Assembly (NCBI GenBank): GCA_035400625.1
Contig: DAOMZT010000001.1
Span: forward strand, 90,001 to 122,000
DNA from: an archaeon
GTDB lineage: Archaea > Iainarchaeota > Iainarchaeia > Iainarchaeales > CSSED10-239
Direction of reading: 5' to 3'
DNA length: 32,000 nt
Under the pieces are notes generated by a model. It searched no databases. It was not told where the DNA came from and worked only from the letters and a program-made list of their open reading frames with translations. The translations under genes and the position numbers were made by a program. Positions 840 to 29,501 of the stretch are shown piece after piece. How positions within the stretch are numbered: the first letter of the stretch is position 1; every line of letters starts with the position of its first letter.

Positions 840-1676
840 GTGAAAAATATGACAGATAAAATAATAGAAGCACTAAGCCAAATAAAATTCAAAGCAACAA
901 ACATTTATGAATCCTTTACTTGTCCACTACACCGCACAACCAAAACACAAAGAGTACCAACACTAAAAACATTAAAGGCAAACATTGATGAACTAACCAG
1001 ATTATTAAATGGCCTTTTAGGTTATTCTGCTATACAGTTTAATAAAGAAATAGAGCCAGAAAAAATAAGACTGTTCCAAAACAAGTTTATGGAAATTTCA
1101 GGTAAATTACAACAATCTATTTTCTTAGAAGAACACACAACAATTGTAGAAAACAATCTAGTAAATATCAAAAATGAAATTGCAACACCTGAAAAATATT
1201 TTGGAATCGAACAATCTGTGAAAAACAATATAAATAATTTAATTATCTTTATTGATTATGCAAAGAAACAAATAGATCACAAATATGTTAGCCTAGCAAA
1301 TCAAAAAAAATCAGTAGAAGAATTATTAAAAACACTTGAAAGAAAAGAACAAACAATTCTTGAACTTAATAAAAAGATCGATGAACTTAACTGGATTGAT
1401 GCAAAGGAAAAAGCAAAAGATTCTAGGCTTGCCAATCTAGAAGAAGAATTACTTAAATCCCATAAAGCAAACGAACAGGATCTTACTATTTTAAAATTAC
1501 ATATTATACAAATTGAAAAAGCACTAGATAATATTTTAAGAGAATCAAAATCATTAACTCAAGATATAAATCATCTAGAAGCAAAAAACATGCAAAAAGA
1601 ACAAGCATCATTAGAGCTGATTAAAGAATTAAAAAAAGAATTGATTGCTGCAAAATATAATTTAAGAAATAAGTGA
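840..1676 (+). CDS. hypothetical coiled-coil protein; first gene of the surface-machine cluster
   Basis: 278-aa ORF (GTG at 840, alternative ATG at 849). It is K/E/L-rich with heptad-like stretches (LEEELLKSHKANEQDLTILKLHIIQIEKALDNILRE) and has no TM segment. The stop lies 6 nt before the next start. Confidence 0.6.
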   Translation: MKNMTDKIIEALSQIKFKATNIYESFTCPLHRTTKTQRVPTLKTLKANIDELTRLLNGLLGYSAIQFNKEIEPEKIRLFQNKFMEISGKLQQSIFLEEHTTIVENNLVNIKNEIATPEKYFGIEQSVKNNINNLIIFIDYAKKQIDHKYVSLANQKKSVEELLKTLERKEQTILELNKKIDELNWIDAKEKAKDSRLANLEEELLKSHKANEQDLTILKLHIIQIEKALDNILRESKSLTQDINHLEAKNMQKEQASLELIKELKKELIAAKYNLRNK

Positions 1677-1682
1677 TAAATA

Positions 1683-3200
1683 ATGTCAGAATTTGACCCT
1701 TTTGGAGGGTATTCACCTCAAGGAAATGAAAAACCAAAATCTAATTTTAAATTGGATAAAAAAACAACGGAATTGATTAAGAAAGTAATTATTTTAATTG
1801 TAGTCCTAGGTGTTGTTGGCGGAATTGTTTATTATTTCTTTTTTAATAACATTACAATTTATTTTTCAGTAATAGATACCGAAGGAAAAAGTTTAAATTC
1901 TGCAGAAATAAAAATCTCAACAGGGAAACAAAATAAATCAGTCATATATTCTCCAGGAGATGACATAAAATTAAATAAAAATAAAAAATACAAATATTCT
2001 ATAAATCAAAAAGGGTATAAATTAATTAATGACCAATTGAACCCAAAAGACATAGAAAACACCAATATAACTATTAAATTAGAAAAAAACATAAGGCTAG
2101 ATGTCCTTTCTTTTATTTGCCCAGATGAGGTGTTTGTTGGGCAAACCGTTAAATGTGAATTACAATTAAATAATATTAGTGAAAATGAAGACTATAATCT
2201 AGAAAATTTAATTTTTGAATACAACCAGCAAAATAAATGGATTGATTTAAATGATGATTCTCTAAGATTTGTAGATGGGTTTAATCAAGACATTCCAATT
2301 TCAAAAACAATTGGGCGAAAAACAAAAGACACAGTTTTTGTTTTGTTTAGGTTGCCTGAAAATTTTAGTGTCGGAACTACAAAAAAAATAATGGCAAGAG
2401 TCAAGTATACAGACAATAAAAAGAGTTGTGATATAAAAATATCTCAACCACCAAATATTACCTTTTCCTCAGAACTGAGTGGTTCTTTAGCCCTTGAAAG
2501 CGGAAATGAAATCACTAAAACTTATACGATTGATAATACTAAAAATAAAACAGACATATCCGGATTAGAACTAGAAATAGATGCAAATTATGAGCCCTCA
2601 ACTGGTGAACCACCTTCTAATTTCAATGTTAATGACATTTTTATAACAGATTATACATCGCTAAGTGTCAATGCATCCTCGCGTTCAGTGGGGCAAATTT
2701 CAATTAAGTTACCTGCTAATTTAAGAGCAGGAAAAATTAACGGAACATTAACATTAAACAGCCCAATTTTTTCTGACCCAAAAAAAGTTTCATTTATCAT
2801 TAATGTAAAAGAACCAGAAAATAAATTTACAATTAGCTTAACAAAAAATTCAGAAACATTAACATATGATGCAAATAAAAACATCACAACAATTAAACAG
2901 GTTACATTAAATTTAGATAATAAAAACAAAATTCCTGTCCACATAAATTCTATCTATGTTGAAAACTCAACAGGAACAACCGATTGTAATAATTGGATTG
3001 TCCTGCCAGTAGAGTATAATGGCTATGACATCCAACCAAATAATAATCCTGCCCCAATTATTTTATTACAAGGATCAAACTTTGACTCTTTTACAACAAT
3101 AACCGGATTAAAGATTTGTAACATAAATGTGGATTACAAGCACCCTTATTTAGATGAAGATATAATTATCAAAAACAAGATACAAATAAGTGTAAATTAA
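1683..3200 (+). CDS. hypothetical N-terminally membrane-anchored extracellular protein, probably tandem beta-sandwich (CARDB/Ig-like) domains
   Basis: 505 aa. A ~30-aa cytoplasmic head is followed by a single TM (VIILIVVLGVVGGIVYYFFF) and then an Asn/Thr-rich body with about ten N-x-S/T sequons. Segments such as VFVGQTVKCELQLNNISENEDY resemble CARDB-type strands. Confidence 0.6.
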   Translation: MSEFDPFGGYSPQGNEKPKSNFKLDKKTTELIKKVIILIVVLGVVGGIVYYFFFNNITIYFSVIDTEGKSLNSAEIKISTGKQNKSVIYSPGDDIKLNKNKKYKYSINQKGYKLINDQLNPKDIENTNITIKLEKNIRLDVLSFICPDEVFVGQTVKCELQLNNISENEDYNLENLIFEYNQQNKWIDLNDDSLRFVDGFNQDIPISKTIGRKTKDTVFVLFRLPENFSVGTTKKIMARVKYTDNKKSCDIKISQPPNITFSSELSGSLALESGNEITKTYTIDNTKNKTDISGLELEIDANYEPSTGEPPSNFNVNDIFITDYTSLSVNASSRSVGQISIKLPANLRAGKINGTLTLNSPIFSDPKKVSFIINVKEPENKFTISLTKNSETLTYDANKNITTIKQVTLNLDNKNKIPVHINSIYVENSTGTTDCNNWIVLPVEYNGYDIQPNNNPAPIILLQGSNFDSFTTITGLKICNINVDYKHPYLDEDIIIKNKIQISVN

Positions 3201-3201
3201 A

Positions 3202-5220
3202 ATGGACTATATTGATTGGATAATTTCTAGTGTTTTATATGTAACAGTTATTGCACTAGTGCTTATTAGCTTATTTAATGTCATGCCTAAATCAAACAAT
3301 GATAATACAATAAGCGATTCACTCTACAAATCAACAATTTCACAAATTATCCCAATTTATAATGTTTCTATAAATACAAATGATTCAGAAATATACCCTT
3401 ATGTTATTTCAGACATTAATTTTGGCAGAGCAGGAAATATGTTTACAATAGATACAAACAATAATTTGCAATTTGGATTGATTTACGATAAAGATAGATT
3501 TTATAATTATGAAACTGACATTAATGCTTTATCATGCTTAGGAGTACAATTGCTATTAGAAAATTTTAATGATTATAATTATCAAGATACTTTTGATTTA
3601 AATTCAGGAACTGCTACGATAAAGTCAGGAATATTAGAACTTAATTCAGGAACAATTATTGATTCTACAATTGAACCAACTAGATATCTTGGCTCTTTTT
3701 TAACTAATGCAGAAGACATAAATGTGTATATTAATTTTGGTGATACAAGCGATATCTTTTATTGTAGTTTTAATGCAACAGGAGCGCAACTTTTTAAAAT
3801 TAGAGAAGAAGTAATTACAGAAAACAACACAACCCCTAAAATCACAAACTGGAGAAGACTAAATTTTGGATATTACAGAGATTTCAATGGATTGTCTTGG
3901 TTTTTCTGTGGGATAGACAATAACGCCAACCTCATAGAAACAAGTAGTGTGACTGCTCCAAAAAATGCCAAAATAAGAATAGAAGCAATTGAAGATCAAA
4001 CATATATTGATGATTTTATAATTTATAAAAGTTTGATAAATGCAATAGACTACAATGGCACAACCCTAAAAACCGATTCTTTAAAAACAACAATAACAAC
4101 TAACGAAGATATGAATGTGGATTTTTTTGTATTTACTGAAAATCAAGCAACAGAAGTATTAGAATATTCTCTGTCTTTTTCCAATCTGGGAGAACGCCTA
4201 AACAACCATAATGAAGAACCAATTAAAATTTTCTCAAATGATTTAAATCAAAACAAATTGGTTTTCTTTCCTATGGCTAAAGAATTTTGGATATATAAAT
4301 ATACAGGCGAAAACTCATTGACTATTAATTATAAACTTGTAGATTCATATCCTTCTAATTTCGGCTCTACTGCAGGAAATTGGCAATTTGCAGATTTAAA
4401 CAAATTATCTGGAAACTATGCTGTGCCAATATCTTTTGTTTCAGAAAGTTCTTTTGCTACAACAGATATTGTCTCTTTTGATATGAATTTTAATAAAGTC
4501 TTTTCAGAGATTACACCTGTTAGTGGTTCTGAAGCACCAACCATAAACTTTTGTAATTTTGATATTTGTACAGATATTACTAACGATTCTAATTTTGTAT
4601 ATAATATTGACACAAATATTGCAAACGTAATTTTTAAGTTCCCTGAAGAAATAGTTGCTAACCAACCATTTAATATCATAATTAATTTTAATTATTTAGG
4701 TTTAGAAAATATAGAAAATGTGGCAGGAGATATAATTCCTCTTGAAGGCACCCAACTTACAGCAAGAGAAACTTCTGAAGATATAAATATTAATGCTAGT
4801 AAATTATATCTGTATAATATCTTTAATCCAACTTACCCAGAAATCAAACAAACAATAATCTTTGATGTGTTTGACAACACAGGATTATATTCTCAAGATT
4901 GTAATTTTTCTATAGATTACAATTCTCACAACATAATCCTAAATTGCGATAAAAATTATCTGCTTAAAGTAAGATATAGATTTGCTGATTTAAATAACAC
5001 CATTCTAGAATATCCAAAACTTAATATTACAAAAACAAACGAAAGAATTGTAACTCAAGAACATTTTGAGAGCTTGTCTTGTGATTCTTATTTTGTAAAT
5101 ATTAAAAATAAAACACTAGATGTTAACTGTGGTATGGGAGTTAATCCAAATTACAAAACGCTAACAAAATATCTTCACAATAATGGATTACTAGAAAATG
5201 CAAACATATATATAAAATAA
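3202..5220 (+). CDS. hypothetical large N-anchored extracellular protein with a possible LamG/concanavalin-like lectin domain
   Basis: 672 aa. The start lies 1 nt after the previous stop. N-terminal hydrophobic segment IISSVLYVTVIALVLISLF. Residues ~115-277 end in QTYIDDFIIYKSL, resembling the terminal strand of LamG_3 domains. The protein is very Asn-rich. Confidence 0.6.
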   Translation: MDYIDWIISSVLYVTVIALVLISLFNVMPKSNNDNTISDSLYKSTISQIIPIYNVSINTNDSEIYPYVISDINFGRAGNMFTIDTNNNLQFGLIYDKDRFYNYETDINALSCLGVQLLLENFNDYNYQDTFDLNSGTATIKSGILELNSGTIIDSTIEPTRYLGSFLTNAEDINVYINFGDTSDIFYCSFNATGAQLFKIREEVITENNTTPKITNWRRLNFGYYRDFNGLSWFFCGIDNNANLIETSSVTAPKNAKIRIEAIEDQTYIDDFIIYKSLINAIDYNGTTLKTDSLKTTITTNEDMNVDFFVFTENQATEVLEYSLSFSNLGERLNNHNEEPIKIFSNDLNQNKLVFFPMAKEFWIYKYTGENSLTINYKLVDSYPSNFGSTAGNWQFADLNKLSGNYAVPISFVSESSFATTDIVSFDMNFNKVFSEITPVSGSEAPTINFCNFDICTDITNDSNFVYNIDTNIANVIFKFPEEIVANQPFNIIINFNYLGLENIENVAGDIIPLEGTQLTARETSEDININASKLYLYNIFNPTYPEIKQTIIFDVFDNTGLYSQDCNFSIDYNSHNIILNCDKNYLLKVRYRFADLNNTILEYPKLNITKTNERIVTQEHFESLSCDSYFVNIKNKTLDVNCGMGVNPNYKTLTKYLHNNGLLENANIYIK

Positions 5221-5227
5221 AACCTAA

Positions 5228-5392
5228 TCACATTATTGCCCTAAGAACAAGAACAAGAATTGCAATACCCAAAGACAAACCAATAACTGCCTCAGGAGTC
5301 AATTGTGGACCGGCCACAGATTCCTTGAATTTCATTATGCCTATAGCTGAACTTGGACCTTGATTTGTATTTTTAGAATATTTCATTTTCAT
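5228..5392 (-). CDS. secG: preprotein translocase subunit Sec61beta (archaeal SecG), 54 aa
   Basis: Own translation gives MKMKYSKNTNQGPSSAIGIMKFKESVAGPQLTPEAVIGLSLGIAILVLVLRAIM. It has the conserved G(L/I)M(R/K)F motif, a short linker and a single C-terminal TM tail-anchor. It falls below the ORF-track size cut-off. Confidence 0.8.
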   Translation of the reverse strand: MKMKYSKNTNQGPSSAIGIMKFKESVAGPQLTPEAVIGLSLGIAILVLVLRAIM

Positions 5393-5486
5393 AAATTTAT
5401 CACAATTTAAATAGAGCTATATATAATTAAAGAAACCAAAACCTTTTATATTAATCTATTTTATATTTTATTAGAGTTGAATTGGT

Positions 5487-6419
5487 ATGGCTGAGCAGAA
5501 AAAGCAATCAGAATATAAGTGGCTTGTAAGAATATTATTTCTATTAGTAATTATAATTGCAGCATTATTTGTATTTATATGGACAGGGACAATGAGATGC
5601 AGATCAATTCCTGGTGGCTGTAACATATATTGGAGCGTTATGACCTTAGTTACTGGTAAACAACAACCAAGTGTTCTTATATTATATGACCCAACTGATC
5701 AAAAAGGGCTGGGCAACCCTGAACTATTAAAAGATCTACTAACAGATAGAAAAGGGGTGGCAATACACCCAACTCTAGCAGATATTCGCTATCTTAATTC
5801 TGAACAATTAAAGAACGTAAGTCTTGTAATTGTAGAAAAATCCAGAAAGATTTCAACACTTCAATTAATGACTATGCTCAACTATATCTCACAAGGCGGA
5901 AGATTAGTTTGGATTGGAGATGCAGGAGTAGAGGCTGACACAGATAGAGGAGATATGCTATATGTTGGCCCAGAAAATGATAGAAACAATGGATGGGTAA
6001 GATTAACAGACACAAATAGAGTTATATTTTTTAACAGGGCTCTAGGGGTTAATTTTGTTACAAATTTCTGTGATGTAAGAGATTGCCATGTTGGAGATAA
6101 ATATACAGGTAAATTAATGCCAAGCTCTGATACCCACCCATTAGTTTATGGTTTAAAATCAAATCTCCCAATCTATGACAATTATTCTATAGTAACTTTG
6201 ATTGAACCAAATCCTGTTCCATTAAAGATAGATTTTGGATCGAATCTTAGAGATACTAAAAATCGTGCTTATGGAGACATATTTGATGCTATAGTTACAA
6301 GCAATTCAAATAGAGTTGCTTACTATGCTATTCCCCCAGAATATCTTGCAGAAGAAAGAGATGGAGATAACAAATATTATTCTATTGTTTATAACATGTT
6401 TGAAGGAATGGTAAATTGA
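5487..6419 (+). CDS. hypothetical N-anchored extracellular protein (possible GATase1/DJ-1-like fold)
   Basis: 310 aa with TM WLVRILFLLVIIIAALFVFIW. The stretch SVLILYDP...VSLVIVEK...ISQGGRLVWIGDAG is reminiscent of flavodoxin-like/GATase1-like membrane proteins, which is a weak call. Confidence 0.55.
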   Translation: MAEQKKQSEYKWLVRILFLLVIIIAALFVFIWTGTMRCRSIPGGCNIYWSVMTLVTGKQQPSVLILYDPTDQKGLGNPELLKDLLTDRKGVAIHPTLADIRYLNSEQLKNVSLVIVEKSRKISTLQLMTMLNYISQGGRLVWIGDAGVEADTDRGDMLYVGPENDRNNGWVRLTDTNRVIFFNRALGVNFVTNFCDVRDCHVGDKYTGKLMPSSDTHPLVYGLKSNLPIYDNYSIVTLIEPNPVPLKIDFGSNLRDTKNRAYGDIFDAIVTSNSNRVAYYAIPPEYLAEERDGDNKYYSIVYNMFEGMVN

Positions 6420-6420
6420 C

Positions 6421-6774
6421 ATGACAAAATCTTTTGAAGTCGCAATTTCTATAATCTTGCTTTTATTTTTTGTTTTTTTTTTATTTGAGGCAATAAATCA
6501 AAATAATTTTGAAAAACCAATACCTGATGAAATAAAAACCATAATCTTATTAGAAGCAAGAGACCCTGGATTTAGGGAGCTTGTCTCAAATTCAGAAGTT
6601 GATAATGTCTATTCTCTGCTTTATCCACAAATTGACTATAGATTTAATGTAAGCATTTGTGATTGGCTAAATAGTAATTGTGAAAATAAAGAATTAGATA
6701 ATTTCAAAAAGAAAAGAGAATATGTATATTTCTTTTCTGATACTAATAAAACCCTTCATATTGAATTAGATTAA
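6421..6774 (+). CDS. small pilin-like protein (non-canonical N-terminus)
   Basis: 117 aa. The start lies 1 nt after the previous stop. N-terminus MTKSFEVAISIILLLFFVFFLFEA is a short polar head plus a ~20-aa hydrophobic helix, like a type IV pilin, but it has Ser rather than Gly/Ala at the putative -1 position. Confidence 0.55.
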   Translation: MTKSFEVAISIILLLFFVFFLFEAINQNNFEKPIPDEIKTIILLEARDPGFRELVSNSEVDNVYSLLYPQIDYRFNVSICDWLNSNCENKELDNFKKKREYVYFFSDTNKTLHIELD

Positions 6775-6783
6775 AGGAGTTAG

Positions 6784-7269
6784 ATGATTTTGAATAAAGG
6801 ATTTACATATATTATAACTACAATGCTACTTATAATACTTATCAGTGGGGTTGTTATTGTTTCTAATTATAACAGCAACAAAAATAAAACAAATCCTGTA
6901 GCGACACTTGCAAAAAACTATGAAAACGAGTTCTTAAATATTTTAGAAACTGGTTCAACTGTTGAAGACATTAATTTGTTAAACTACAGATTTAAGAAAT
7001 TTATTAACAGCAACAACTATGATGCGAAAATCTGCAATCTTATTACTACAGAAAACGGCCTTATAGCAAGTAATTTTATGGACCAAAATTGCGATTTAAT
7101 AATAAATGGAGAAAAACGACAAACAATTACAGAAAACGACACAATTCTAACAGATATATTTATAAATGATACGAATATATATTTATGTAGCTGTCATTAC
7201 AAGGCAGGCGAGAATATCTATTATATAGATATCTATAATGAAAATTCAAAAACCATATTTAAAAACTAG
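6784..7269 (+). CDS. pilin-like protein with class III (prepilin) signal peptide
   Basis: 161 aa. N-terminus MILNKG|FTYIITTMLLIILISGVVIV fits the archaeal prepilin-peptidase pattern [KR][GA]|[hydrophobic][T/S/I...] followed by an uninterrupted hydrophobic helix. Confidence 0.6.
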   Translation: MILNKGFTYIITTMLLIILISGVVIVSNYNSNKNKTNPVATLAKNYENEFLNILETGSTVEDINLLNYRFKKFINSNNYDAKICNLITTENGLIASNFMDQNCDLIINGEKRQTITENDTILTDIFINDTNIYLCSCHYKAGENIYYIDIYNENSKTIFKN

Positions 7270-7278
7270 AGGAGATAT

Positions 7279-7630
7279 TATGAAAAACGTTACTGAACTT
7301 TTAAATAAAATAGAAGAAAAAACACACATAATTGTAGCAAAATTAGAAATATTAAGATTTGCAGAAGAAGATGTTCAAACCATTAAAAAATCATTAGAAT
7401 CAATTAAAAAGAAGCTTGAAGGTGGAGAAATAAGTAAATTTTCGTATGCTACTATGTTAGAATTAAACAAGAAAAGAGCAACAGAAAACACCAATTCTAA
7501 AAAGAAAACCTGGGATGAAATTGCAGAATCAATAAACGAAATAAGCGATTTATTAAATGAATTAAAAGATACATTCAATAGTAAAACTGAATTTGAAGGA
7601 ATTGATGAGATTAAAATAGACAAATCATAA
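7279..7630 (+). CDS. small coiled-coil protein
   Basis: The ORF-track frame 7238..7630 overlaps the previous gene. I prefer the internal ATG at 7279, which is preceded by GGAG (ctagaGGAGatattATG). The protein MKNVTELLNKIEEK... is K/E-rich and alpha-helical with no TM. Confidence 0.55.
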
Positions 7631-7660
7631 ATTATTTAAAAATAGAACATAAGATGGGCC

Positions 7661-9640
7661 ATGAAAATACCAAATCGAAAAGATACATCGAAACTTTATG
7701 ACCTAATTCTTAATCTTAAAAATATCGAAAACCAAAGAACTGCAAAAGAAAAAGAAATATTAGATAAATTTTATAATCAAGAAATAGATTCTAAAAAACT
7801 AGTTTTAAAATTAAAAAAAGAAAAACTATTTTCTAATTCTAAAAAGTTAGATTTAAAATTTATTAATGCGTTTCTGGAATATAGCAAACACTTAGAACAT
7901 ATATCAAAAAACATAAATGTAACTACAGTTAACAAATATAAATTAAGTAAAAGACCAGCTCCTTTTATTTTAGGGCTAAAAAAATTATTATCTCCTGGAA
8001 ACGCCAAAGAAATCAAAAAAAAGAAATCTGCAAAAACAAAAATAGTAGAAGTAAACCCAAGTGAGAAAAAACAACACAAAAATATATTACAGAGTTTTTT
8101 TAGAGATCGTAAGCATAAAGAAACAATCAAAATTACAGAAAATTTAAATCCTTTGCCTTCTTTTGAAGAACCAAAAGAACTGTTGCCTGAAAACTACCAA
8201 ATATTAATTGAAGGCTATGCATATGCATTTATTGAAGAAAAAGACGGAGTAAAAAGATATGTTGTTGCAGAACCAGAATTAACAGCAGCAGAAGAAAAAA
8301 TACTTACTGAGACAAAACAAGAGCTAATAAATAAAATATCGCTTATTGAAATAAAAGATGAATCAGAATTACTAAAAAGAATTGATAAAATATTTACTAA
8401 AAAAAAACTTACACCTCAACAGAAATCAAAAATAATGTATTATGTAGGCAGACAAATTAAAGGATTAGACATTATAGAACCACTAATGCACGACCCATTA
8501 ATTGAAGATATAGAATGTGATGGAACAGGCATCCCTATATTTATTGTTCATAGAAAATATGGGCATCTTGAAACCAATATATTATTTAAAGACGAGAAAG
8601 AATTACAACAGTTTGTAATTAAGATGGCACACTTAAGTAAAAGCTATGTATCCTATGCTAGCCCATTACTTGATTCTATTCTTCCTGATGGTTCTCGTGT
8701 TAATGCCATATTGACAAGTAATGTTTCAACTAGAGGACCAACATTTACAATCAGAAAATTCCCACAAAAGCCATTAACTGCAATTGATTTAATTAATAGT
8801 GGCACATTAAACCCTATGCTTGTTGCTTATATTTGGACAATTATGGAATACCAAAAAAATGCATTAATTATTGGTCCAACTGCTGGTGGTAAAACAACAT
8901 TATTAAATGTCATTACTTCTTTTATCCCACCAGGAAAAAGAGTTGTTTCAATTGAAGATACTAGAGAAATAAATTTGCTTTTAGATAACTGGGTTCCACA
9001 AATTACTAGGCCTGGATTTGGACCACCAGATGGCACAGGTAAAAAATACGGGGAAGTTACGATGCTTGATCTTATTAAAGAATCTTTCAGACAAAGACCA
9101 GATTATTTAATTGTAGGAGAAGTTAGAGGAGAAGAGATGTCTGTCATGTTTCAAGGTATGGCATCTGGTCACTGTTGTTTATCTACAGTTCACGCAAAAA
9201 GCTTAACAGACCTTGTAAACAGGCTTATAACGCCTCCAATTTCTCTTGAACCAGCACTATTAACTTCTCTTGACCTTGTTATTATTACTGGCTTTGAAGG
9301 TAGTAGCGATATAAAAAGAACAATTAAAGAATTAGATGAGATTAAAGGATTTAATACTAAAGATAATAAAATAGAATATACAGCAATTTACAATGTTTAT
9401 GATAAACCTCAAAAAAAGGAAGGAGATTTATTCACGCACGAACTACCAATAACCTACAAAAGTGAAATTTTACAATCTATTGCAAAAGAATATAATATAA
9501 ATATCAATAGTTTATTAGATATGATAAACAAAAGAATCAAATTTATAGAAGAATTAACAAAGAATCCACCAAAGGATTATGTTGAATTTAAAATAGCAAT
9601 CAATAAATACAAATCACAAGAAAAAACAATTACTAATTAA
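7661..9640 (+). CDS. type II/IV secretion-system ATPase of the archaeal FlaI/ArlI-PilB-VirB11 family, with a ~175-aa Lys-rich N-terminal extension
   Basis: 659 aa. Walker A is GPTAGGKTTLLN, followed by IEDTREI, Walker B/Asp box RPDYLIVGEVRGEE and His box GHCCLSTVHA. The family-typical N-domain motif RYVVAEPELTAAEEKIL begins near residue 198. Confidence 0.9.
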   Translation: MKIPNRKDTSKLYDLILNLKNIENQRTAKEKEILDKFYNQEIDSKKLVLKLKKEKLFSNSKKLDLKFINAFLEYSKHLEHISKNINVTTVNKYKLSKRPAPFILGLKKLLSPGNAKEIKKKKSAKTKIVEVNPSEKKQHKNILQSFFRDRKHKETIKITENLNPLPSFEEPKELLPENYQILIEGYAYAFIEEKDGVKRYVVAEPELTAAEEKILTETKQELINKISLIEIKDESELLKRIDKIFTKKKLTPQQKSKIMYYVGRQIKGLDIIEPLMHDPLIEDIECDGTGIPIFIVHRKYGHLETNILFKDEKELQQFVIKMAHLSKSYVSYASPLLDSILPDGSRVNAILTSNVSTRGPTFTIRKFPQKPLTAIDLINSGTLNPMLVAYIWTIMEYQKNALIIGPTAGGKTTLLNVITSFIPPGKRVVSIEDTREINLLLDNWVPQITRPGFGPPDGTGKKYGEVTMLDLIKESFRQRPDYLIVGEVRGEEMSVMFQGMASGHCCLSTVHAKSLTDLVNRLITPPISLEPALLTSLDLVIITGFEGSSDIKRTIKELDEIKGFNTKDNKIEYTAIYNVYDKPQKKEGDLFTHELPITYKSEILQSIAKEYNININSLLDMINKRIKFIEELTKNPPKDYVEFKIAINKYKSQEKTITN

Positions 9641-9642
9641 AT

Positions 9643-10947
9643 TTACTTAAAGGGGTCTCTTCTATTAAACAGATATTCTGGATCTATCTCTTTTGATTTT
9701 GTATTTTGTTTTGGTTTCTTTTTTATTTTGATTTTCTTTGCTAAGGTAATGCCAACAAGAATTACAATAGTTGCAACAATGATATAAATAAAATATTTTG
9801 TGAAGTCGTGTGTTTCTATCTCTTTAACTCCTGTTTCTTTTATTTTTTTAACTTGGGTTTTAGCAAGTTTTATCTTGCTAATGCTTTCTTCATATCTGCC
9901 CTTGTTATATAGTTCCTTTATTTGAGAATAATTTTGACTTAGTTCTGATACTGTTTTTGCATCTTTCCATAAATTTAAATTTTCTGAACTTAATATTTGG
10001 TTTATTGAATTATCCAAGGTTCCTTTTAAGTCAGCACTATAGTTATATAGCAAAGATTTTGCAATATAATAATTTTGTCTGGTCTCCAGAGTTTGTTGTA
10101 AGATCTCTAATGGGCTATTTGGTCCTGCTTTTTCAAAGTCAGCAATCACCAGAGAATAGAACTGATTTGTTGATGCGAGGCTATCTGTTATTGTAGCAAT
10201 ACTACTATTTAAGTTGCTTGGTGCTTCGATATAGCTCATTATTATCTTTTTTGTGGTTTCATCTAATTTTTTATCAGCAACTACTACTTCTACAATCTCA
10301 TTTGTCGAATCGCGGTAATTTACTGAAGAAGAAACAATGTCGTTATAGCCTTTAAATGTGTTTTTATATGATAATATCAAACTATCTGTTTTTGTACAGT
10401 CAGTAGTGTCTAAAAATACAGATTGTTCTTTTTGTAATTTACTAAGCTTTGTTTTCATATCTTGTAATTGATTGATTAATAATTCTAATTTGTCTTTTGT
10501 ATTTTGACATTTTGCAGTTATTGAAGAAGAGTAATTTGACTTGATTATTCCTTCTATTTTTGCAGATTTTGATTGCAAAATAATATTTAAATTATCTATC
10601 TTATCAATTAATTGCTGAGATAAATAGTTATTCCCGCTTTTGGTTTTTATGTTTCTATTAAGTAAAGCAGTTTTAATGATATTTTGGGTGCTGGTATTTC
10701 TCTCGTAGCTTACAGAGCCGTCATTGGATTCTATAGGCAAAAACAGCACAATGTTTGATTCTGAATCAACAATATTTAGTGTATAATACTCGTGATTATC
10801 GCAATTAATATAATAAACACTGCCAGGATCTAAATATTCGTTTTGCAACATATATTCTTTTGCAATATCCTGTGCAGAATATAAAGAAATGGCATGCGCC
10901 AAAGGAATAATTAACAATAAAAATATAATTGCTATAATTTTTTTCAT
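9643..10947 (-). CDS. hypothetical secreted type-I membrane protein (signal peptide, PepSY-like head, long helical region, C-terminal TM plus basic tail)
   Basis: 434 aa. Signal peptide MKKIIAIIFLLLIIPLAHA|IS. The head is AQDIAKEYML...YYTLNIVD. The middle is coiled-coil-like (LELLINQLQDMKTKLSKLQKEQ). The C-terminus is YFIYIIVATIVILVGITLAKKIKIKKKPK. There is a 4-nt overlap with the upstream gene. Confidence 0.6.
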   Translation of the reverse strand: MKKIIAIIFLLLIIPLAHAISLYSAQDIAKEYMLQNEYLDPGSVYYINCDNHEYYTLNIVDSESNIVLFLPIESNDGSVSYERNTSTQNIIKTALLNRNIKTKSGNNYLSQQLIDKIDNLNIILQSKSAKIEGIIKSNYSSSITAKCQNTKDKLELLINQLQDMKTKLSKLQKEQSVFLDTTDCTKTDSLILSYKNTFKGYNDIVSSSVNYRDSTNEIVEVVVADKKLDETTKKIIMSYIEAPSNLNSSIATITDSLASTNQFYSLVIADFEKAGPNSPLEILQQTLETRQNYYIAKSLLYNYSADLKGTLDNSINQILSSENLNLWKDAKTVSELSQNYSQIKELYNKGRYEESISKIKLAKTQVKKIKETGVKEIETHDFTKYFIYIIVATIVILVGITLAKKIKIKKKPKQNTKSKEIDPEYLFNRRDPFK

Positions 10948-11918
10948 TCTTCCTCTTTTTTAAATATTTTATCAAACAGATATATTGTTACAGCAAATAT
11001 TAAAAAAACTATTGATAAGCTTGTATAAGCCAAAGATGAAATCACTAATGCAAAGAAAAACGCAAAGTTGCTTTCTATAAACCCAATAAACGGAATTGAT
11101 TTTATAGCATCGATTATTTTAACTTTAATAACTGGCGCATCAAGCTCAGGCATTAGTTCTTTTATTTCTTCGGGTGTTTTATTTGCTGCTGCAGAGTATT
11201 TTATGTTTTCCATAAAATCCGTAAAGTCAGAAGATGTTTCGTCTGTTTTTGATCTTAATGCAGAATACTCTTTAGATTCCATAATAAATTTTAAATTGGA
11301 CAAGGTACATTGCTGGTTAATTGTGTAAGATGCACTAATCCAAGGATCCAAATCATCAGCAACAAACAAATTTACTAGACCTGCTTCAAATTCCTCAACT
11401 TTTTTACTTTGTTCTGGAAGAATATACAATACAGAAGAGATAAACAATCCAATAACTAAAAAAATAGTTAATTTAGATAGGTAATTTGTTGTTTGGTTAA
11501 ACATGTTTTTTTCTGATGTTTTTTTAGCTATCAAACACAAGATAATGTGTGCTAAGATATACAATATTAAAAACAAAACAAAATAAATTTTAATTTTTAA
11601 AAAAATGATTGCAAAAATCAAAGACAAAAACAAACTAATACCAACTACAATTAAACTTTCTTCTTTTATAGAGTTGTAAATGATTGCTAAAATAATTATT
11701 GAGGTTATTGGGAAAAAAATTGCAAAAAGCAGGAAATTTAGAGAAAATATAGAGTTAAGTATTGTCGCCAAATCAAATACTCTAAATGCATAAACTGTTA
11801 GTTTGGAAGATATCAAAAAATAAATCCAAAAAAAAGAAGACATAGCTACAATTAATATTTTTAAAAGCAATTTCGAATTAAATCCAACTGCTCCTTTCTT
11901 ATTTATCATAAATCCCAC
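10944..11918 (-). CDS. hypothetical polytopic membrane protein with a ~100-aa soluble loop
   Basis: 324 aa (GTG at 11918, alternative ATG at 11909). About five N-terminal TMs are followed by an acidic soluble segment (EEFEAGLVNLFVADDLDPW...TPEEIKELMPELD) and C-terminal TM(s). No family was recognised. Confidence 0.55.
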   Translation of the reverse strand: MGFMINKKGAVGFNSKLLLKILIVAMSSFFWIYFLISSKLTVYAFRVFDLATILNSIFSLNFLLFAIFFPITSIIILAIIYNSIKEESLIVVGISLFLSLIFAIIFLKIKIYFVLFLILYILAHIILCLIAKKTSEKNMFNQTTNYLSKLTIFLVIGLFISSVLYILPEQSKKVEEFEAGLVNLFVADDLDPWISASYTINQQCTLSNLKFIMESKEYSALRSKTDETSSDFTDFMENIKYSAAANKTPEEIKELMPELDAPVIKVKIIDAIKSIPFIGFIESNFAFFFALVISSLAYTSLSIVFLIFAVTIYLFDKIFKKEEE

Positions 11919-13912: not shown

Positions 13913-14350
13913 TTAGTTTAATAATTTAATATTTTCTGCTTTCATAGTTATTGGAACTTTTACTGTTGCATCAAACAACTCAATAACCACTTCTTCTTTT
14001 GCAACATTTACTCTTGTTACTTTTGCTCTTGAGCCTTTAAAAGGACCAAGTATTATCTCTACTGTCTGGCCAGGCTTAATAGAACTCATTAATGGTCTGG
14101 ATTCTAGGATTCCAGCTATTTCTTTAATATCAATATTTCCTGTAACCATTTGCCCACCCTTAATGTGTGGCACATTATGAATCAATAGCTCTACTGTCTT
14201 TTCTTCTTGTGCTTCTATCAAGATATAGCCTTTAAGATCTGCCATCTCCACTAAAGAATAAACAGGAAGCCCTTCTTCTTTTATTCTATGGTGAAGAATA
14301 TCAATAACAACTCTTTCTTGACCAACCGTTGTTCTAACTGTAAATATCAT
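13913..14350 (-). CDS. spt5: transcription elongation factor Spt5 (archaeal NusG)
   Basis: The product starts at MIFTVRTTVGQERVVIDIL (NGN domain). The KOW domain is PGQTVEIILGPFKGSRAKVTRV. The 32-codon N-terminal extension in the ORF track (to 14446) is rejected because it overlaps secE. The ATG overlaps the secE stop (ATGA). Confidence 0.9.
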   Translation of the reverse strand: MIFTVRTTVGQERVVIDILHHRIKEEGLPVYSLVEMADLKGYILIEAQEEKTVELLIHNVPHIKGGQMVTGNIDIKEIAGILESRPLMSSIKPGQTVEIILGPFKGSRAKVTRVNVAKEEVVIELFDATVKVPITMKAENIKLLN

Positions 14351-14526
14351 ACTTTCCCGCCTATTATGTTCATAATTATTCTTACTATAAAACCAATAAC
14401 TCCAATAACAATCATTCCAATACCTACAATCTTTGCCATTAACCAAAATTCTTTCCTGCTTGGTTTCTTGGAAATTAATAAAATTCTTTTTGAAGATTCA
14501 AAAAATTCTTTTATCTTATTTGCCAT
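14347..14526 (-). CDS. secE: preprotein translocase subunit SecE (Sec61gamma), 59 aa
   Basis: Own translation gives MANKIKEFFESSKRILLISKKPSRKEFWLMAKIVGIGMIVIGVIGFIVRIIMNIIGGKV. It has the canonical amphipathic head, KP(S/T)R.E(F/Y) motif and single TM, and sits in the conserved ftsZ-secE-spt5-L11 position. Confidence 0.85.
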   Translation of the reverse strand: MANKIKEFFESSKRILLISKKPSRKEFWLMAKIVGIGMIVIGVIGFIVRIIMNIIGGKV

Positions 14527-16713: not shown

Positions 16714-16974
16714 TTATTCCTCATACCAATTTTCATATTGTTTGTGATTCCCTACAAAATGAATTGATTTGGTTTTTGTTGCTTCTTCAACAACAAAACA
16801 AATACGATATTGTCCAACTTCTTCTACGCAGTATTTTGATTGATGTAATCGTCTATGATTTGACATCGTCATAAGTTGAAAAATTTTCTTCAAAATGCGA
16901 ATTTGAACTTTTTTATCAAATTTACGAAAATATCTATCCCAATTTGGTATAGTATCAATCTTCCATTCAGTCAT
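16714..16974 (-). CDS. RelE/ParE-superfamily type II toxin
   Basis: 86 aa. It has the W.I....D...RKFDKKVQIRILKKI head and the GQYRICFVVEE....SIHFVGNHKQY tail typical of RelE-like mRNA interferases. There is a 4-nt (ATGA) overlap with the upstream small gene. Confidence 0.65.
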   Translation of the reverse strand: MTEWKIDTIPNWDRYFRKFDKKVQIRILKKIFQLMTMSNHRRLHQSKYCVEEVGQYRICFVVEEATKTKSIHFVGNHKQYENWYEE

Positions 16975-20685: not shown

Positions 20686-21489
20686 CTATGGTCTTGGGGT
20701 TGGGGGTCTTACTGACCCACCACCTATATCTTCTTCTCTGCCTATTGGATCTATTGGGTCTGCTGATACCTTATTTTTTATATAGTTTCCAACAAAGATA
20801 TCGCTATCTTCATATCCTTCTTTAACAGCTATTGCTTTGAGAGTGGTGGTTTGGGTAATTTGTATTGCTTTTCCCCCTCCTTTAAATTCTGAACTTGCTG
20901 TTGTTGGTGTAGACCCATTTGTAGTATAATAGATTGTTGCACCTTTTGTTGCACAACTTAATGAAACAGATATAGAGCTATTAAACAACCCTGGTGCAGG
21001 GTCTGCTGTCGGGGTTTCTACTTTTAATCTTTTTGCGTTTGTGTTTGAGATGTTTTCCAAATTTATATATTTATTATCTGAAGTTATTAGAACAACAGTT
21101 ACTTTTGAATCTGCAACACCAAGATCAAAAAAATTTTCTAAATCAAAAGTATTAACTCCTTCTTCTAAAATTAGTGGTGTGTTAAATGTTTTTTCTTCAC
21201 TTTCTTTATTTTCTGAAATAATTTTGTATTTTGTAATTTCTATGTTTTGTGATTCTAAATCTGCTGGTGGGCTATACCTAAATTTAACAACCCCAGCATC
21301 TATTTTTTCTGGATAAACAAAATCGCTTGCATTATATTTTGTTTCAGTTACTGTTTGGGCTTGGTTTACTCCTTTGTCTGTGTAGCCACGACCCCAACTT
21401 AGTAATATTCCTCCTAAAATTACAGCAACAAAAACTAAAAGTACAGTTATGATTATTGCTGATACTCCTTTATTATTTAATTTTTTCAT
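20686..21489 (-). CDS. archaeal type IV pilin-like protein (class III signal peptide) fused to a chitobiase/beta-hexosaminidase C-terminal-like domain
   Basis: 267 aa. N-terminus MKKLNNKG|VSAIIITVLLVFVAVILGGILLSWG matches the archaeal pilin/archaellin N-terminal domain. Residues ~160-237, PGLFNSSISVSLSCATKGATIYYTTNGSTPTTASS...TTTLKAIAVKEGYEDSDI, match the CHB_HEX_C-type pattern. The tail is Pro-rich. Confidence 0.75.
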   Translation of the reverse strand: MKKLNNKGVSAIIITVLLVFVAVILGGILLSWGRGYTDKGVNQAQTVTETKYNASDFVYPEKIDAGVVKFRYSPPADLESQNIEITKYKIISENKESEEKTFNTPLILEEGVNTFDLENFFDLGVADSKVTVVLITSDNKYINLENISNTNAKRLKVETPTADPAPGLFNSSISVSLSCATKGATIYYTTNGSTPTTASSEFKGGGKAIQITQTTTLKAIAVKEGYEDSDIFVGNYIKNKVSADPIDPIGREEDIGGGSVRPPTPRP

Positions 21490-21496
21490 ATTTTAT

Positions 21497-25647: not shown

Positions 25648-25656
25648 TTTATTTTC

Positions 25657-28605: not shown

Positions 28606-28612
28606 AGTTTAT

Positions 28613-29500: not shown

Positions 29501-29501
29501 A

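What the first reader, a model, noticed from the sequence alone, without database searches (positions are those of the whole stretch)
840..9640. Orphan type-IV-filament-like surface machine: ATPase plus pilin-like and giant extracellular proteins, with no platform protein or prepilin peptidase
SEEN: nine same-strand ORFs are packed almost without gaps (junctions 1676/1683, 3200/3202, 6419/6421, 6774/6784, 7269/7279, 7630/7661). They are interrupted only by an antisense Sec61beta gene at 5228-5392. The last gene is an unmistakable FlaI/PilB/VirB11-family ATPase with Walker A, Asp box and His box. It is preceded by two small proteins with pilin-type N-termini, one of which fits the class III cleavage pattern KG|FT. 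Further upstream lie three large single-pass, Asn-rich, sequon-rich extracellular proteins (505, 672 and 310 aa) and two soluble coiled-coil proteins (278 and 117 aa). KNOWN: every characterised archaeal type IV filament system (archaellum, Aap, Ups, Epd pili, bindosome) pairs this ATPase with a polytopic FlaJ/PilC/TadC platform protein, usually the adjacent gene, and needs a PibD/FlaK/EppA peptidase. Neither is recognisable anywhere in these 32 kb, and the gene after the ATPase is convergent. None of the eight partner proteins matches a family I can name with confidence. INFERENCE: this looks like a divergent, possibly lineage-specific surface-filament or host-attachment apparatus of a reduced-genome archaeon. 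The coiled-coil proteins could act as scaffolds (analogy: crenarchaeal ArlX) and the large proteins as displayed adhesins or a sheath.
Basis: partly seen in the sequence, partly recalled or inferred. Interest (0 to 1): 0.85.

Follow-up and report, generated by a model that had tools for sequence, protein, structure and literature searches.

The report
Split type IV pilus gene cluster
This is the motor-ATPase and minor-pilin half of an ordinary archaeal type IV pilus system in a small-genome (DPANN) archaeon; the "missing" membrane platform genes lie about 230 kb away in a sister genome, so the machine is split between two loci, not orphan.

Summary
The ORFs, junctions, antisense Sec61beta gene and FlaI/GspE-type ATPase are real. 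No T2SSF platform or A24 peptidase is encoded in the 32 kb. The "orphan machine" reading does not hold.

- **Shared ancestry.** The 117-aa and 161-aa pilin-like genes and the 116-aa coiled-coil gene are homologous, in the same order, to genes in related Diapherotrites loci. There the orthologous ATPase is followed directly by two T2SSF genes.
- **Platform found elsewhere.** In a clade member with the same "orphan" layout, a T2SSF pair plus three canonical pilin genes sits on the same 687,569-bp contig, about 230 kb from the ATPase. Fourteen AT-rich loci show this ATPase-less platform-pilin cluster.
- **The nine genes are not one unit.**
  - The 310-aa protein has a ThuA/GIFT-like fold. It travels with Sec61beta even where no ATPase is nearby.
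  - The 278/505 pair is missing from some relatives.
  - The 672-aa protein has swappable lectin-like C-termini.
- **Other checks.** Sequons are not enriched. The 324-aa polytopic neighbour is not T2SSF-like.

Verdict: a new member of the two-platform (Epd/Tad-like) archaeal type IV pili with an unusual split layout. The platform in the window's own genome is inferred, not seen. Interest is low to moderate.

The parts
7661..9640 (+). FlaI/GspE2/PilB-type assembly ATPase, 659 aa. It has an N-terminal Lys-rich extension of about 160-190 aa. Motifs: Walker A at nt 8873-8896, Asp box 8951-8968, Walker B 9098-9130, His box 9167-9196.
   Evidence: PF00437 E 3.7e-32. NCBIfam FlaI model 337 bits, below its 550 cut-off. 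PDB 2oap 1.5e-92 over residues 160-650, and FlaI 4ii7 1.3e-73. Motif positions. Identity is 55-87% across 12 clade genomes.
7280..7630 (+). Small soluble protein of 116 aa, coiled-coil by composition, no TM. It is the conserved gene directly upstream of the ATPase and probably a cytoplasmic accessory or scaffold.
   Evidence: 32% Lys+Glu and no TM. Identity is 46-90% in the clade. hhalign probability 97.1%, E 5.7e-11 to the 146-aa gene directly upstream of the ATPase in L027, a locus that carries ATPase plus two T2SSF genes. The start ATG is at 7280 with GGAG upstream.
6784..7269 (+). Pilin-like protein, 161 aa. It has a short basic leader, the conserved KG|FTYII motif, a hydrophobic helix and a Cys-containing globular part. 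It is a candidate minor pilin.
   Evidence: N-termini of 12 orthologues. hhalign probability 94.7%, E 6e-8 over 147 columns to the 176-aa gene of L008, the T2SSF-linked locus. No Pfam family.
6421..6774 (+). Pilin-like protein, 117 aa. It has the N-terminus MTKS|FEV, a hydrophobic helix and two invariant Cys. It is a candidate minor pilin with an atypical -1 residue (Ser/Thr).
   Evidence: Alignment. hhalign probability 94.9%, E 4e-8 to L008's 120-aa gene and 82% to L027's 129-aa gene, in the same position in each locus. No Pfam family.
5487..6419 (+). Membrane-anchored 310-aa protein (N-terminal TM, 4 invariant Cys). Its extracellular domain has a class I glutamine-amidotransferase-like (ThuA/GIFT) fold. 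It is genomically tied to Sec61beta rather than to the ATPase.
   Evidence: AF2 pLDDT 92.3. Foldseek: ThuA-like 4pxy E 5.5e-8 (TM 0.65 on target), GATase1-like 3rht, IFT52 GIFT 5fms. Weak ABC_transp_aux hits in 10/12 members and IFT52_GIFT in 4/12. 133 representative clusters. In L019 and L020 it again lies divergent from Sec61beta, with a paralogue and no T2SSE ATPase in the DNA held downstream (about 6 kb in L019, only 1.3 kb in L020).
5228..5392 (-). Sec61beta (translocon subunit), divergently transcribed from the 310-aa gene.
   Evidence: PF03911 E 3.4e-7. It holds the same position in every relative examined. The 94-bp spacer carries a TATA-like TTTATATT about 35-40 nt before the ATG at 5487 (promoter inferred).
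3202..5220 (+). 672-aa protein with a hydrophobic N-terminus MDYIDWIISS... and no basic leader. About 370 N-terminal residues are conserved and the C-terminus is variable. It is a candidate surface adhesin; a link to the pilus is not shown.
   Evidence: Orthologues share the N-terminal ~370 aa but carry DUF2341 (L007, L016) or Laminin_G_3 (L005, L012) C-terminal domains. Sequons are not enriched.
1683..3200 (+). 505-aa single-pass (type II) membrane protein with no family assigned. It is present only in part of the clade.
   Evidence: TM at about 27-59. It is found together with the 278-aa gene in window, L003, L010, L012, L014, L015 and L017. It is absent from L005, L007 and L016. A flippase gene separates it from the 672-aa homologue in L017.
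840..1676 (+). 278-aa (275 aa from ATG 849) soluble protein, coiled-coil by composition. It always co-occurs with the 505-aa gene.
   Evidence: No TM, 25% Lys+Glu. Only weak SMC-like or PspA-like hits. Distribution as for the 505-aa gene.
9643..10947 (-). 434-aa protein with a signal peptide and a C-terminal TM anchor. It is a conserved convergent neighbour and no role in the pilus is shown.
   Evidence: TM segments 1-26 and 380-408. Identity is 31-88% in the clade. No family.
10944..11918 (-). 324-aa polytopic membrane protein. It was tested as a possible divergent platform and is not T2SSF-like.
   Evidence: 23 homologue clusters, none with Pfam. AF2 pLDDT 87, with no structural match (best E 0.03, TM about 0.2). 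hhalign against a T2SSF profile gives probability 0.5%, while that profile does find PilC and GspF in the PDB.
20686..23107 (-). Two canonical archaeal type IV pilin genes. One is 267 aa (N-terminus NNKGVSAIIITVLL, with CHB_HEX_C/Fn3_assoc domains). The other is 536 aa (N-terminus QRGITPIVTVIILIV, with M26_N/GLUG domains). They are likely substrates of the same machinery.
   Evidence: Pfam. The N-terminal 50 aa of the 267-aa protein are 44-49% identical to the pilins next to the T2SSF pair in L101.

Best explanation
Window 6421-9640, possibly starting at 5487, is one half of a conventional archaeal type IV pilus system of the two-platform-gene (Epd/Tad-like) kind. The system has been split between two chromosomal loci in this clade of AT-rich DPANN (Diapherotrites/Iainarchaeota-labelled) archaea.

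**What this locus encodes.** It encodes the hexameric FlaI/GspE2-type assembly ATPase, a small coiled-coil cytoplasmic partner and two fast-evolving minor-pilin-like proteins.

**What the second locus encodes.** It was seen about 230 kb away on the same contig in a clade member. It encodes two single-domain T2SSF (TadB/TadC-like) platform proteins followed by three PilA-type major pilins.

**Proposed working (inferred from the established mechanism of this superfamily).**
1. An unlinked prepilin peptidase trims the class III leaders.
2. The ATPase docks on the cytoplasmic domains of the T2SSF pair.
3. ATP hydrolysis lifts pilins out of the membrane into a growing filament.
4. The 117/161-aa proteins prime or cap the filament.
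5. Pilins with adhesin domains (window 20686-23107) decorate it.

**Genes not shown to be part of the pilus.**
- The 310-aa ThuA/GIFT-fold protein is genomically tied to Sec61beta.
- The 278/505-aa pair and the 672-aa lectin-type protein are variable surface-protein genes that happen to lie upstream. The 672-aa protein could serve as an adhesin, but there is no evidence that it is displayed by the pilus.
For: 1. **Conserved layout.** All seven clade loci with called genes have ~310, ~120, ~160, ~116, ATPase, and no T2SSF within 10 kb. BLAST on six further GTDB loci agrees.
2. **Outgroup loci still carry the platform.**
   - L008 (ATPase 53% identical): 120, 176, 245, 113, ATPase, T2SSF, T2SSF.
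   - L027 (ATPase 55% identical): 129, 232, 244, 146, ATPase, T2SSF, T2SSF.
3. **Profile matches to those outgroup genes**:
   - the 117-aa family to L008's 120-aa gene, probability 94.9%;
   - the 161-aa family to L008's 176-aa gene, 94.7%;
   - the 116-aa family to L027's 146-aa gene, 97.1%.
4. **Platform-pilin loci without an ATPase.** A T2SSF profile scan of metagenomes returned 14 AT-rich loci (23-30% GC) with T2SSF_a, T2SSF_b and up to three pilin genes (short contigs hold fewer), and no ATPase in the DNA held around them (up to 6 kb each side).
5. **Same contig as the ATPase.**
   - One of these T2SSF proteins (P0365) has the same longest contig, 977,747 bp, as ATPase P0044.
   - It lies on the same JGI contig Ga0209340_1000002 at about 270.8-272.6 kb. 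The ATPase is at about 502.4-504.6 kb.
   - Both T2SSF genes pass the Pfam threshold (46.6 and 56.7 bits).
   - They are 37% and 38% identical to L008's pair, in the same order.
   - No ATPase lies within 10 kb of them.
6. **Parallel similarity ranking.** T2SSF similarity to L008 ranks L008 clade (45-66%), then this group (36-42%), then others (29-35%). ATPase similarity ranks the same way.
7. **Substrates are present.** Canonical class III pilins occur in the window and beside the platform pair.
8. **Literature.** Two contiguous single-domain platform genes define Epd-like and Tad systems. Archaeal T4P loci are 'sometimes scattered', and peptidases are shared between systems (Denise et al. 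2019).
Against: - The platform pair was placed on the same contig as the ATPase in one clade member only (ATPase 67% identical to the window's over 79% of its length). The window organism's own T2SSF was not seen.
- None of the ten T2SSF proteins looked up shares the 813,239-bp contig length of the window organism.
- No prepilin peptidase was identified anywhere.
- A second T2SSE ATPase elsewhere in these genomes cannot be excluded, so the ATPase-platform pairing is inferred.
- The pilin status of the 117/161-aa proteins rests on N-terminal motifs and position, not on a solved or predicted pilin fold. The 117-aa family has Ser/Thr rather than Gly/Ala at -1.
- No experiment exists for any component.
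Confidence: 0.78

Rival explanations
1. Truly platform-less (orphan) machine. In the window's lineage the T2SSF genes have been lost. The ATPase works with lineage-specific partners, either alone or through a non-homologous membrane protein such as the convergent 324-aa polytopic protein.
For: - No T2SSF lies within 32 kb, or within 10 kb of the ATPase in any clade genome.
- The 324-aa and 434-aa membrane proteins are conserved next to the ATPase.
- There is a precedent: Thermoproteales clade 4D ATPases are paired with unrecognisable 4-5 TM proteins (Makarova 2016).
- The window organism's own T2SSF was not observed.
Against: - A clade member with the same layout has a bona fide T2SSF pair on the same contig.
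- Fourteen ATPase-less T2SSF-pilin loci of matching composition exist.
- The 324-aa family shows no sequence similarity to T2SSF (hhalign probability 0.5%) and no structural similarity.
- By the positive-inside rule its helical domain is predicted to be extracellular (inference).
- The whole flank (MetAP, L11, Spt5, SecE, FtsZ) is syntenic, so conservation of the neighbours carries no functional weight.
Confidence: 0.06
2. All nine genes form one surface apparatus. The giant proteins (505 and 672 aa) are adhesins or a sheath displayed by the filament. The 278-aa and 116-aa coiled coils are scaffolds, and the 310-aa protein is a structural part.
For: - The genes share a strand and are tightly spaced.
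- The 672-aa family always lies just upstream, has a hydrophobic N-terminus and carries lectin-type domains in orthologues.
- L008 also has a 1093-aa surface protein upstream of its pilin-like genes, and its homologue sits beside the 310-family gene in L019.
Against: - The 278/505 pair is absent from L005, L007 and L016, where glycosylation genes occupy the site. A flippase gene interrupts the array in L017.
- Antisense Sec61beta and a promoter-like spacer split the array.
- The 310-aa family pairs with Sec61beta without an ATPase in two distant genomes.
- The 505-aa and 672-aa proteins have no class III leader.
Confidence: 0.12
3. Degenerate archaellum remnant: the ATPase is ArlI/FlaI and the small proteins are relics of archaellum accessory genes.
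For: The best NCBIfam model is the archaellum motor ATPase FlaI (E 1.9e-100). JGI labels homologues 'FlaI'.
Against: - The score of 337 bits is far below the FlaI equivalog cut-off of 550.
- The best solved relative is the non-archaellar afGspE2.
- No FlaH, FlaJ, FlaF/G or archaellin genes occur here or in the related loci examined.
- Outgroup loci carry two single-domain T2SSF genes plus PilA-type pilins, not a FlaJ.
Confidence: 0.02

Closest known systems
Epd-like archaeal type IV pili (Methanococcus maripaludis EpdJ/K/L) and the bacterial Tad/Flp pilus (CpaF/TadA, TadB, TadC)
   Same: - A FlaI/TadA-family ATPase: CpaF structures match at 3e-38 and the NCBIfam TadA model at 3e-43.
- The platform is split into two single-T2SSF-domain proteins encoded side by side. 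This is the feature Denise et al. 2019 use to unite Epd-like and Tad systems.
- Class III signal-peptide pilins.
- An unlinked peptidase.
   Different: - The ATPase is not contiguous with the platform pair (about 230 kb apart).
- No TadZ/FlaH-type second ATPase was seen in either locus.
- The pilins next to the platform are 147-161 aa, not the very short Flp/Epd type.
- The partner families (117, 161 and 116 aa) have no named counterparts.
- Whether the ATPase falls inside the Epd-like clade was not tested phylogenetically.
Euryarchaeal adhesion pili such as Haloferax volcanii PilB3-PilC3 with dispersed PilA1-6 (clade 2 / 4C / 4F systems of Makarova et al. 2016)
   Same: - The components are dispersed over several loci.
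- There is a set of PilA-type major pilins plus lineage-specific minor pilins.
- An intracellular coiled-coil accessory is seen in some loci (arCOG07564).
- Large S-layer-like or adhesin genes are often nearby.
   Different: In those systems the ATPase and the TadC/PilC gene stay together and the pilins are dispersed. Here the ATPase stays with minor pilin-like genes, and the platform pair travels with the major pilins.
Thermoproteales clade 4D/4E T4P-like loci lacking a recognisable TadC (Makarova et al. 2016)
   Same: The ATPase locus has no identifiable T2SSF gene, and uncharacterised membrane and cytoplasmic proteins lie next to the ATPase.
   Different: Here a bona fide T2SSF pair exists elsewhere in a sister genome. 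The neighbouring polytopic protein was tested and is not T2SSF-like.
Archaellum motor (ArlI/FlaI with ArlJ, ArlH)
   Same: The ATPase has the same fold and motifs, and FlaI structures match at 1e-73.
   Different: It scores below the FlaI equivalog cut-off, and no ArlH, ArlJ, ArlF/G or archaellins are present.

Membership tests
Type IV filament superfamily (archaeal T4P) | PilB/FlaI/GspE-family hexameric ATPase with Walker A, Asp box, Walker B and His box | tested here: met
   PF00437 E 3.7e-32. Motifs located. 2oap and 4ii7 matches.
Type IV filament superfamily (archaeal T4P) | Polytopic T2SSF (PilC/TadB/TadC/FlaJ) platform protein encoded next to the ATPase or within the window | tested here: not met
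   No PF00482 hit in any window ORF. None lies within 10 kb of the ATPase in seven clade loci. The 324-aa polytopic neighbour is not T2SSF-like.
Type IV filament superfamily (archaeal T4P) | T2SSF platform protein present somewhere in the genome | tested here: inconclusive
   Met in a clade member. Two PF00482 genes lie on the same 687,569-bp contig as the orthologous ATPase, about 230 kb away. The same T2SSF-pilin locus occurs in 14 AT-rich metagenome loci. It was not observed for the window's own genome because no tool gave access to its 813-kb contig.
Type IV filament superfamily (archaeal T4P) | Pilins with a class III signal peptide (short basic leader, G/A/S at -1, hydrophobic helix) | tested here: met
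   161-aa family: KG|FTYII in 12/12 orthologues. 117-aa family: K[ST]|hEh. Canonical pilins occur at 20686-23107 (weak Pilin_N hit) and next to the T2SSF pair. This is a motif-level test only; cleavage is not shown.
Type IV filament superfamily (archaeal T4P) | Prepilin peptidase (Peptidase_A24: PibD/FlaK/EppA) | not testable with these tools
   None occurs in the window. These genes are commonly unlinked and shared.
Epd-like / Tad-like subclass | Platform split into two contiguous single-T2SSF-domain genes | tested here: met
   Sister genome L101: 293 and 287 aa, one PF00482 domain each. Outgroups L008 (290 and 284 aa) and L027 (294 and 275 aa) show the same. The criterion comes from Denise et al. 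2019.
Epd-like / Tad-like subclass | Platform genes contiguous with the ATPase and with a secondary ATPase (TadZ/FlaH) | tested here: not met
   ATPase and platform are about 230 kb apart. No TadZ, FlaH or KaiC-like gene occurs in the window, L016 or L101.
Epd-like / Tad-like subclass | ATPase and platform branch inside the Epd-like/Tad clade in phylogenies | not tested
   No phylogeny with reference EpdL or CpaF sequences was built. Only HMM and PDB similarity scores are available.
Archaellum | ArlI equivalog score plus ArlH, ArlJ, ArlF/G and archaellin genes | tested here: not met
   NF058587 scores 337 bits against a cut-off of 550. None of the partner genes is present.
Class I glutamine-amidotransferase-like / ThuA / GIFT fold (310-aa protein) | Flavodoxin-like alpha/beta domain matching ThuA-like, GH42 domain B or the IFT52 GIFT domain | tested here: met
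   AF2 pLDDT 92.3. Foldseek 4pxy E 5.5e-8, 3rht 7e-6, 5fms 8e-6. Sequence hits to PF09822 and PF23355 are all below threshold, so this is fold-level membership only. A catalytic triad was not examined.

The most novel reading that the evidence does not exclude
In this DPANN clade the uncoupling of the ATPase from the platform genes could reflect a functional re-wiring rather than mere gene shuffling. On this reading, several parts form a lineage-specific host-attachment module that works with a non-T2SSF membrane partner such as the conserved 324-aa/434-aa pair. The parts would be the ATPase, its coiled-coil partner, the two unnamed pilin-like proteins, the ThuA/GIFT-fold membrane protein and the 672-aa protein with swappable lectin C-termini. 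The T2SSF pair elsewhere would serve a different, unseen ATPase.
Probability: 0.05. Interest if true: 0.75.

Novelty: new member of a known kind. Interest (0 to 1): 0.25.

Why it matters
- DPANN archaea depend on contact with host cells, and type IV pili are prime candidates for that contact.
- In this clade the pilus genes are split into an ATPase/minor-pilin locus and a platform/major-pilin locus. Automated 'system finders' that require an adjacent ATPase and platform will therefore miss or mis-call such systems.
- Three unnamed families (117, 161 and 116 aa) can now be annotated as pilus-associated.
- The result removes an apparent exception to the rule that PilB/FlaI-type ATPases need a T2SSF platform.
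- The conserved pairing of Sec61beta with a ThuA/GIFT-fold membrane protein is a small separate lead in archaeal secretion or surface biogenesis.

Tried and rejected
1. **The 324-aa polytopic neighbour as a divergent platform: rejected.**
   - It has only 23 homologue clusters and no Pfam family.
   - The confident AF2 model has no structural match to PilC or GspF.
   - hhalign against a T2SSF profile gives probability 0.5%, while that profile does find PilC and GspF.
2. **Word-indexed homologue search with L008's T2SSF.** It gave only 50 hits, all from L008's own clade, and missed even L009's T2SSF. It was too insensitive to decide. The metagenome profile scan succeeded instead.
3. **GTDB genome scan with the ATPase.** It returned only six close loci with no taxonomy beyond 'archaeon', so it helped only with family alignments.
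4. **Pfam and NCBIfam on the partners, singly and family-wide.** Nothing passed threshold. PDB sequence profiles for the 310-aa and 324-aa families also found nothing.
5. **Sequon enrichment: rejected**.
6. **Archaellum reading: rejected**.
7. **hhalign of the 116-aa family against L008's 113-aa and L009's 91-aa coiled coils.** There was no signal. Homology was detectable only to L027's 146-aa protein.
8. **Matching contig lengths to tie a T2SSF to the window organism's 813,239-bp contig.** No match was found among the ten T2SSF proteins looked up.
9. **First look-up of a distant 310-family member (P0226).** It landed on a 1.3-kb contig and was uninformative.
10. **Literature searches.** They found no description of this clade's pilus genes.

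Full report
**1. What is in the sequence**

The window is AT-rich (25-33% GC) and archaeal. It encodes FtsZ, family B DNA polymerase, L11, Spt5, SecE, TBP, Nre, an STT3/AglB oligosaccharyltransferase and Sec61beta. Near-identical copies of its proteins are deposited as 'archaeon' or 'Candidatus Diapherotrites archaeon', on contigs of up to 813,239 bp.

Two details differ. The 116-aa gene starts at 7280, not 7279, behind a GGAG. Gene callers start the first gene at ATG 849.

The antisense 54-aa gene is Sec61beta. The last gene is a FlaI/GspE2-type ATPase with all four motifs. It scores well below the archaellum FlaI equivalog threshold (337 against 550 bits). None of the seven partners reaches any Pfam or NCBIfam threshold. 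No ORF in the 32 kb matches T2SSF or Peptidase_A24. Sequon counts equal what the Asn-rich composition predicts.

**2. Is the nine-gene array one unit?**

The ATPase has about 60 full-length relatives at 55-100% identity. Gene maps were obtained for seven such loci, and six GTDB loci were added.

All share a core. A 672-type protein comes first, then antisense Sec61beta, then genes of about 310, 120, 160 and 116 aa, then the ATPase. Convergent genes of about 440 and 325 aa follow, and then MetAP, L11, Spt5, SecE, FtsZ, eIF2B and PolB.

Because the entire flank is syntenic, neighbour conservation inside this clade says little on its own. The informative differences are these:
- The 278/505 pair is missing from L005, L007 and L016, where glycosylation genes take its place.
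- A flippase gene interrupts the array in L017.
- The 672-aa family keeps its first ~370 residues but swaps its C-terminus between DUF2341, Laminin_G_3 and other sequences.
- A 94-bp spacer with a TATA-like box precedes the 310-aa gene (promoter inferred).

**3. The 310-aa protein**

A phmmer scan of 1.84 billion representatives found 133 clusters. In two distant genomes (L019, L020; about 36% identity) the homologue is again divergently paired with Sec61beta. It is followed there by a paralogue (hhalign probability 91% for L020's 287-aa gene; only a weak BLAST hit for L019's 277-aa gene). No T2SSE ATPase appears in the DNA held downstream, which is about 6 kb in L019 and only 1.3 kb in L020.

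An AlphaFold model built on 43 sequences (pLDDT 92.3) shows an N-terminal TM helix and a class I glutamine-amidotransferase-like domain. It matches ThuA-like proteins, GH42 domain B and the IFT52 GIFT domain (E down to 3e-8). This agrees with weak ABC_transp_aux and GIFT hits in most members.

The protein is therefore a Sec61beta-linked surface protein. It is not a demonstrated pilus part.

**4. The core module is shared with canonical loci**

More distant ATPase relatives sit in standard operons:
- L008: pilins, then 1093, 120, 176, 245 and 113 aa, ATPase, T2SSF, T2SSF.
- L009: ATPase, a 91-aa coiled coil, T2SSF, T2SSF, then pilin-like genes.
- L027: 129, 232, 244 and 146 aa, ATPase, T2SSF, T2SSF.

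Profile comparisons link the window's families to these genes in the same order:
- the 117-aa family to L008's 120-aa gene (94.9%, E 4e-8) and to L027's 129-aa gene (82%);
- the 161-aa family to L008's 176-aa gene (94.7%, E 6e-8, 147 columns);
- the 116-aa coiled coil to L027's 146-aa gene (97.1%, E 5.7e-11).

The N-termini are the most conserved parts of the two small membrane proteins. The 161-aa family reads M(x)0-6-[KEN][KN]G|FTYII in 12/12 orthologues. The 117-aa family reads M[TI]K[ST]|hE. Each motif is followed by a hydrophobic helix and conserved cysteines. This is the pattern of class III (prepilin) signal peptides. Cleavage itself is inferred.

**5. Where is the platform?**

The convergent 324-aa polytopic protein was tested and rejected. 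It has no relatives with Pfam domains. Its confident model has no structural match. hhalign against a T2SSF profile gives probability 0.5%, while the same profile finds PilC and GspF.

A word-indexed search with L008's T2SSF was too insensitive. A profile-derived scan of JGI metagenomes succeeded. It returned three groups:
- L008-type loci;
- 14 loci (L030-L043) at 36-42% identity to L008's T2SSF, with 23-30% GC;
- more distant T2SSF loci.

The first and third groups have a T2SSE ATPase next to the T2SSF. The 14 do not. Their order is T2SSF_a, T2SSF_b and then up to three pilin genes; the shortest contigs hold fewer.

The T2SSF of L042 (P0365) shares its longest contig, 977,747 bp, with ATPase P0044. 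P0044 is a clade member whose locus L016 has exactly the window's 'orphan' layout.

A look-up then placed P0365 on JGI contig Ga0209340_1000002 (687,569 bp) at range 260,822-281,685. L016 lies on the same contig at range 492,365-514,587. The ATPase and the platform pair are therefore about 230 kb apart and on the same strand.
- Both platform genes pass the Pfam threshold.
- They are 37% and 38% identical to L008's two T2SSF genes, in the same order.
- No ATPase lies within 10 kb of them.
- The three downstream genes have textbook archaeal pilin N-termini (…LSPLIATILLIAV, …VSALIATILLIVV, …ISGLIATILLIVV). They resemble the N-terminus of the window's pilin at 20686-21489.

**6. Interpretation**

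The ancestral operon of minor pilins, coiled coil, ATPase and two T2SSF genes is still intact in L008 and L027. In the window's clade it was split. The ATPase kept the minor-pilin-like genes and the coiled-coil gene. The platform pair moved, or stayed, with the major pilins.

Two single-domain platform genes are the hallmark of Epd-like and Tad systems. Archaeal T4P loci are known to be 'sometimes scattered', with shared and unlinked peptidases (Denise et al. 2019). Makarova et al. 2016 describe coiled-coil accessories, nearby large surface proteins and even ATPase loci without a recognisable TadC.

The mechanism proposed is the established one for this superfamily. The ATPase docks on the T2SSF pair and drives polymerisation of peptidase-processed pilins. 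That step is inference from family knowledge, not shown here.

**7. Limits**
- The same-contig proof comes from one clade member. For the window's own genome the platform is inferred by phylogenetic bracketing.
- No prepilin peptidase was found.
- A second ATPase elsewhere cannot be excluded.
- The roles of the 310-, 434-, 324-, 278-, 505- and 672-aa proteins in piliation remain open.

**8. Verdict**

Its striking element, an ATPase with no platform, is an artefact of looking at 32 kb. This is a new, split-locus member of a known kind of archaeal type IV pilus with unnamed minor components. Interest is 0.25. The residual novel reading is a genuinely platform-independent, lineage-specific attachment module. 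It keeps about 5% probability.

Noticed in passing
window 5228-6419; L019 9772-11870; L020 9753-11978: Sec61beta and the 310-aa ThuA/GIFT-fold membrane protein form a divergently transcribed pair. The pair is conserved well beyond this clade (about 36% identity). In L019 and L020 it comes with a tandem paralogue of the 310-aa gene and without any pilus ATPase. This suggests a role in secretion or surface biogenesis rather than in piliation.
   Followed up: partly
window 20686-21489 and 21497-23107 (- strand): These are two canonical archaeal type IV pilin genes whose C-terminal parts carry adhesin or enzyme-type domains. One has CHB_HEX_C_1 plus Fn3_assoc. The other has the M26 IgA1-protease N-terminal region plus a GLUG motif. 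They are candidate adhesive pilins for host or surface contact.
   Followed up: partly
window 3202-3290 (N-terminus of the 672-aa protein) and orthologues in L003-L017: The 672-aa family starts directly with M-[DEQ]-Y-I-D-W-I-[IV]-S-S and a hydrophobic helix, with no basic leader. The acidic residue at position 5 recalls the Glu5 of mature bacterial type IV pilins. Whether this is a leaderless pilin-like anchor or just a signal anchor is unexplained.
   Followed up: no
window 16714-17237 (- strand): Two small overlapping ORFs (86 and 88 aa, no Pfam family) lie between the eIF2B-family gene and PolB. In relatives (L003, L005, L007, L016, L017) those two genes are directly adjacent, so this is a lineage-specific insertion. 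Its layout is that of a toxin-antitoxin pair.
   Followed up: no
window 13913-14526 (- strand): The mechanical 177-aa Spt5 ORF (TTG start) is over-extended. The real Spt5 starts at Met33. A 59-aa SecE gene (14347-14526) occupies the overlap, as in relatives. The pilus locus is thus flanked by two translocon subunit genes, Sec61beta and SecE.
   Followed up: partly
L101 17979-19105 (sister genome, about 8 kb from the T2SSF pair): A 62-aa gene has a weak Class_IIIsignal hit (…SKAQISAEMIILLAAII). An adjacent 143-aa gene reads …NKGQISLEYILVLASIV. This hints at short Flp/Epd-like pilins in the clade.
   Followed up: no
window 24619-27624 (- strand): A GT4-family glycosyltransferase and an STT3/AglB oligosaccharyltransferase lie in the same window. 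N-glycosylation of the surface proteins is therefore plausible, even though sequons are not enriched.
   Followed up: no
window 27904-29524 (- strand): Two basic (Lys/Arg-rich) ORFs of 233 and 303 aa have no family hit in Pfam.
   Followed up: no
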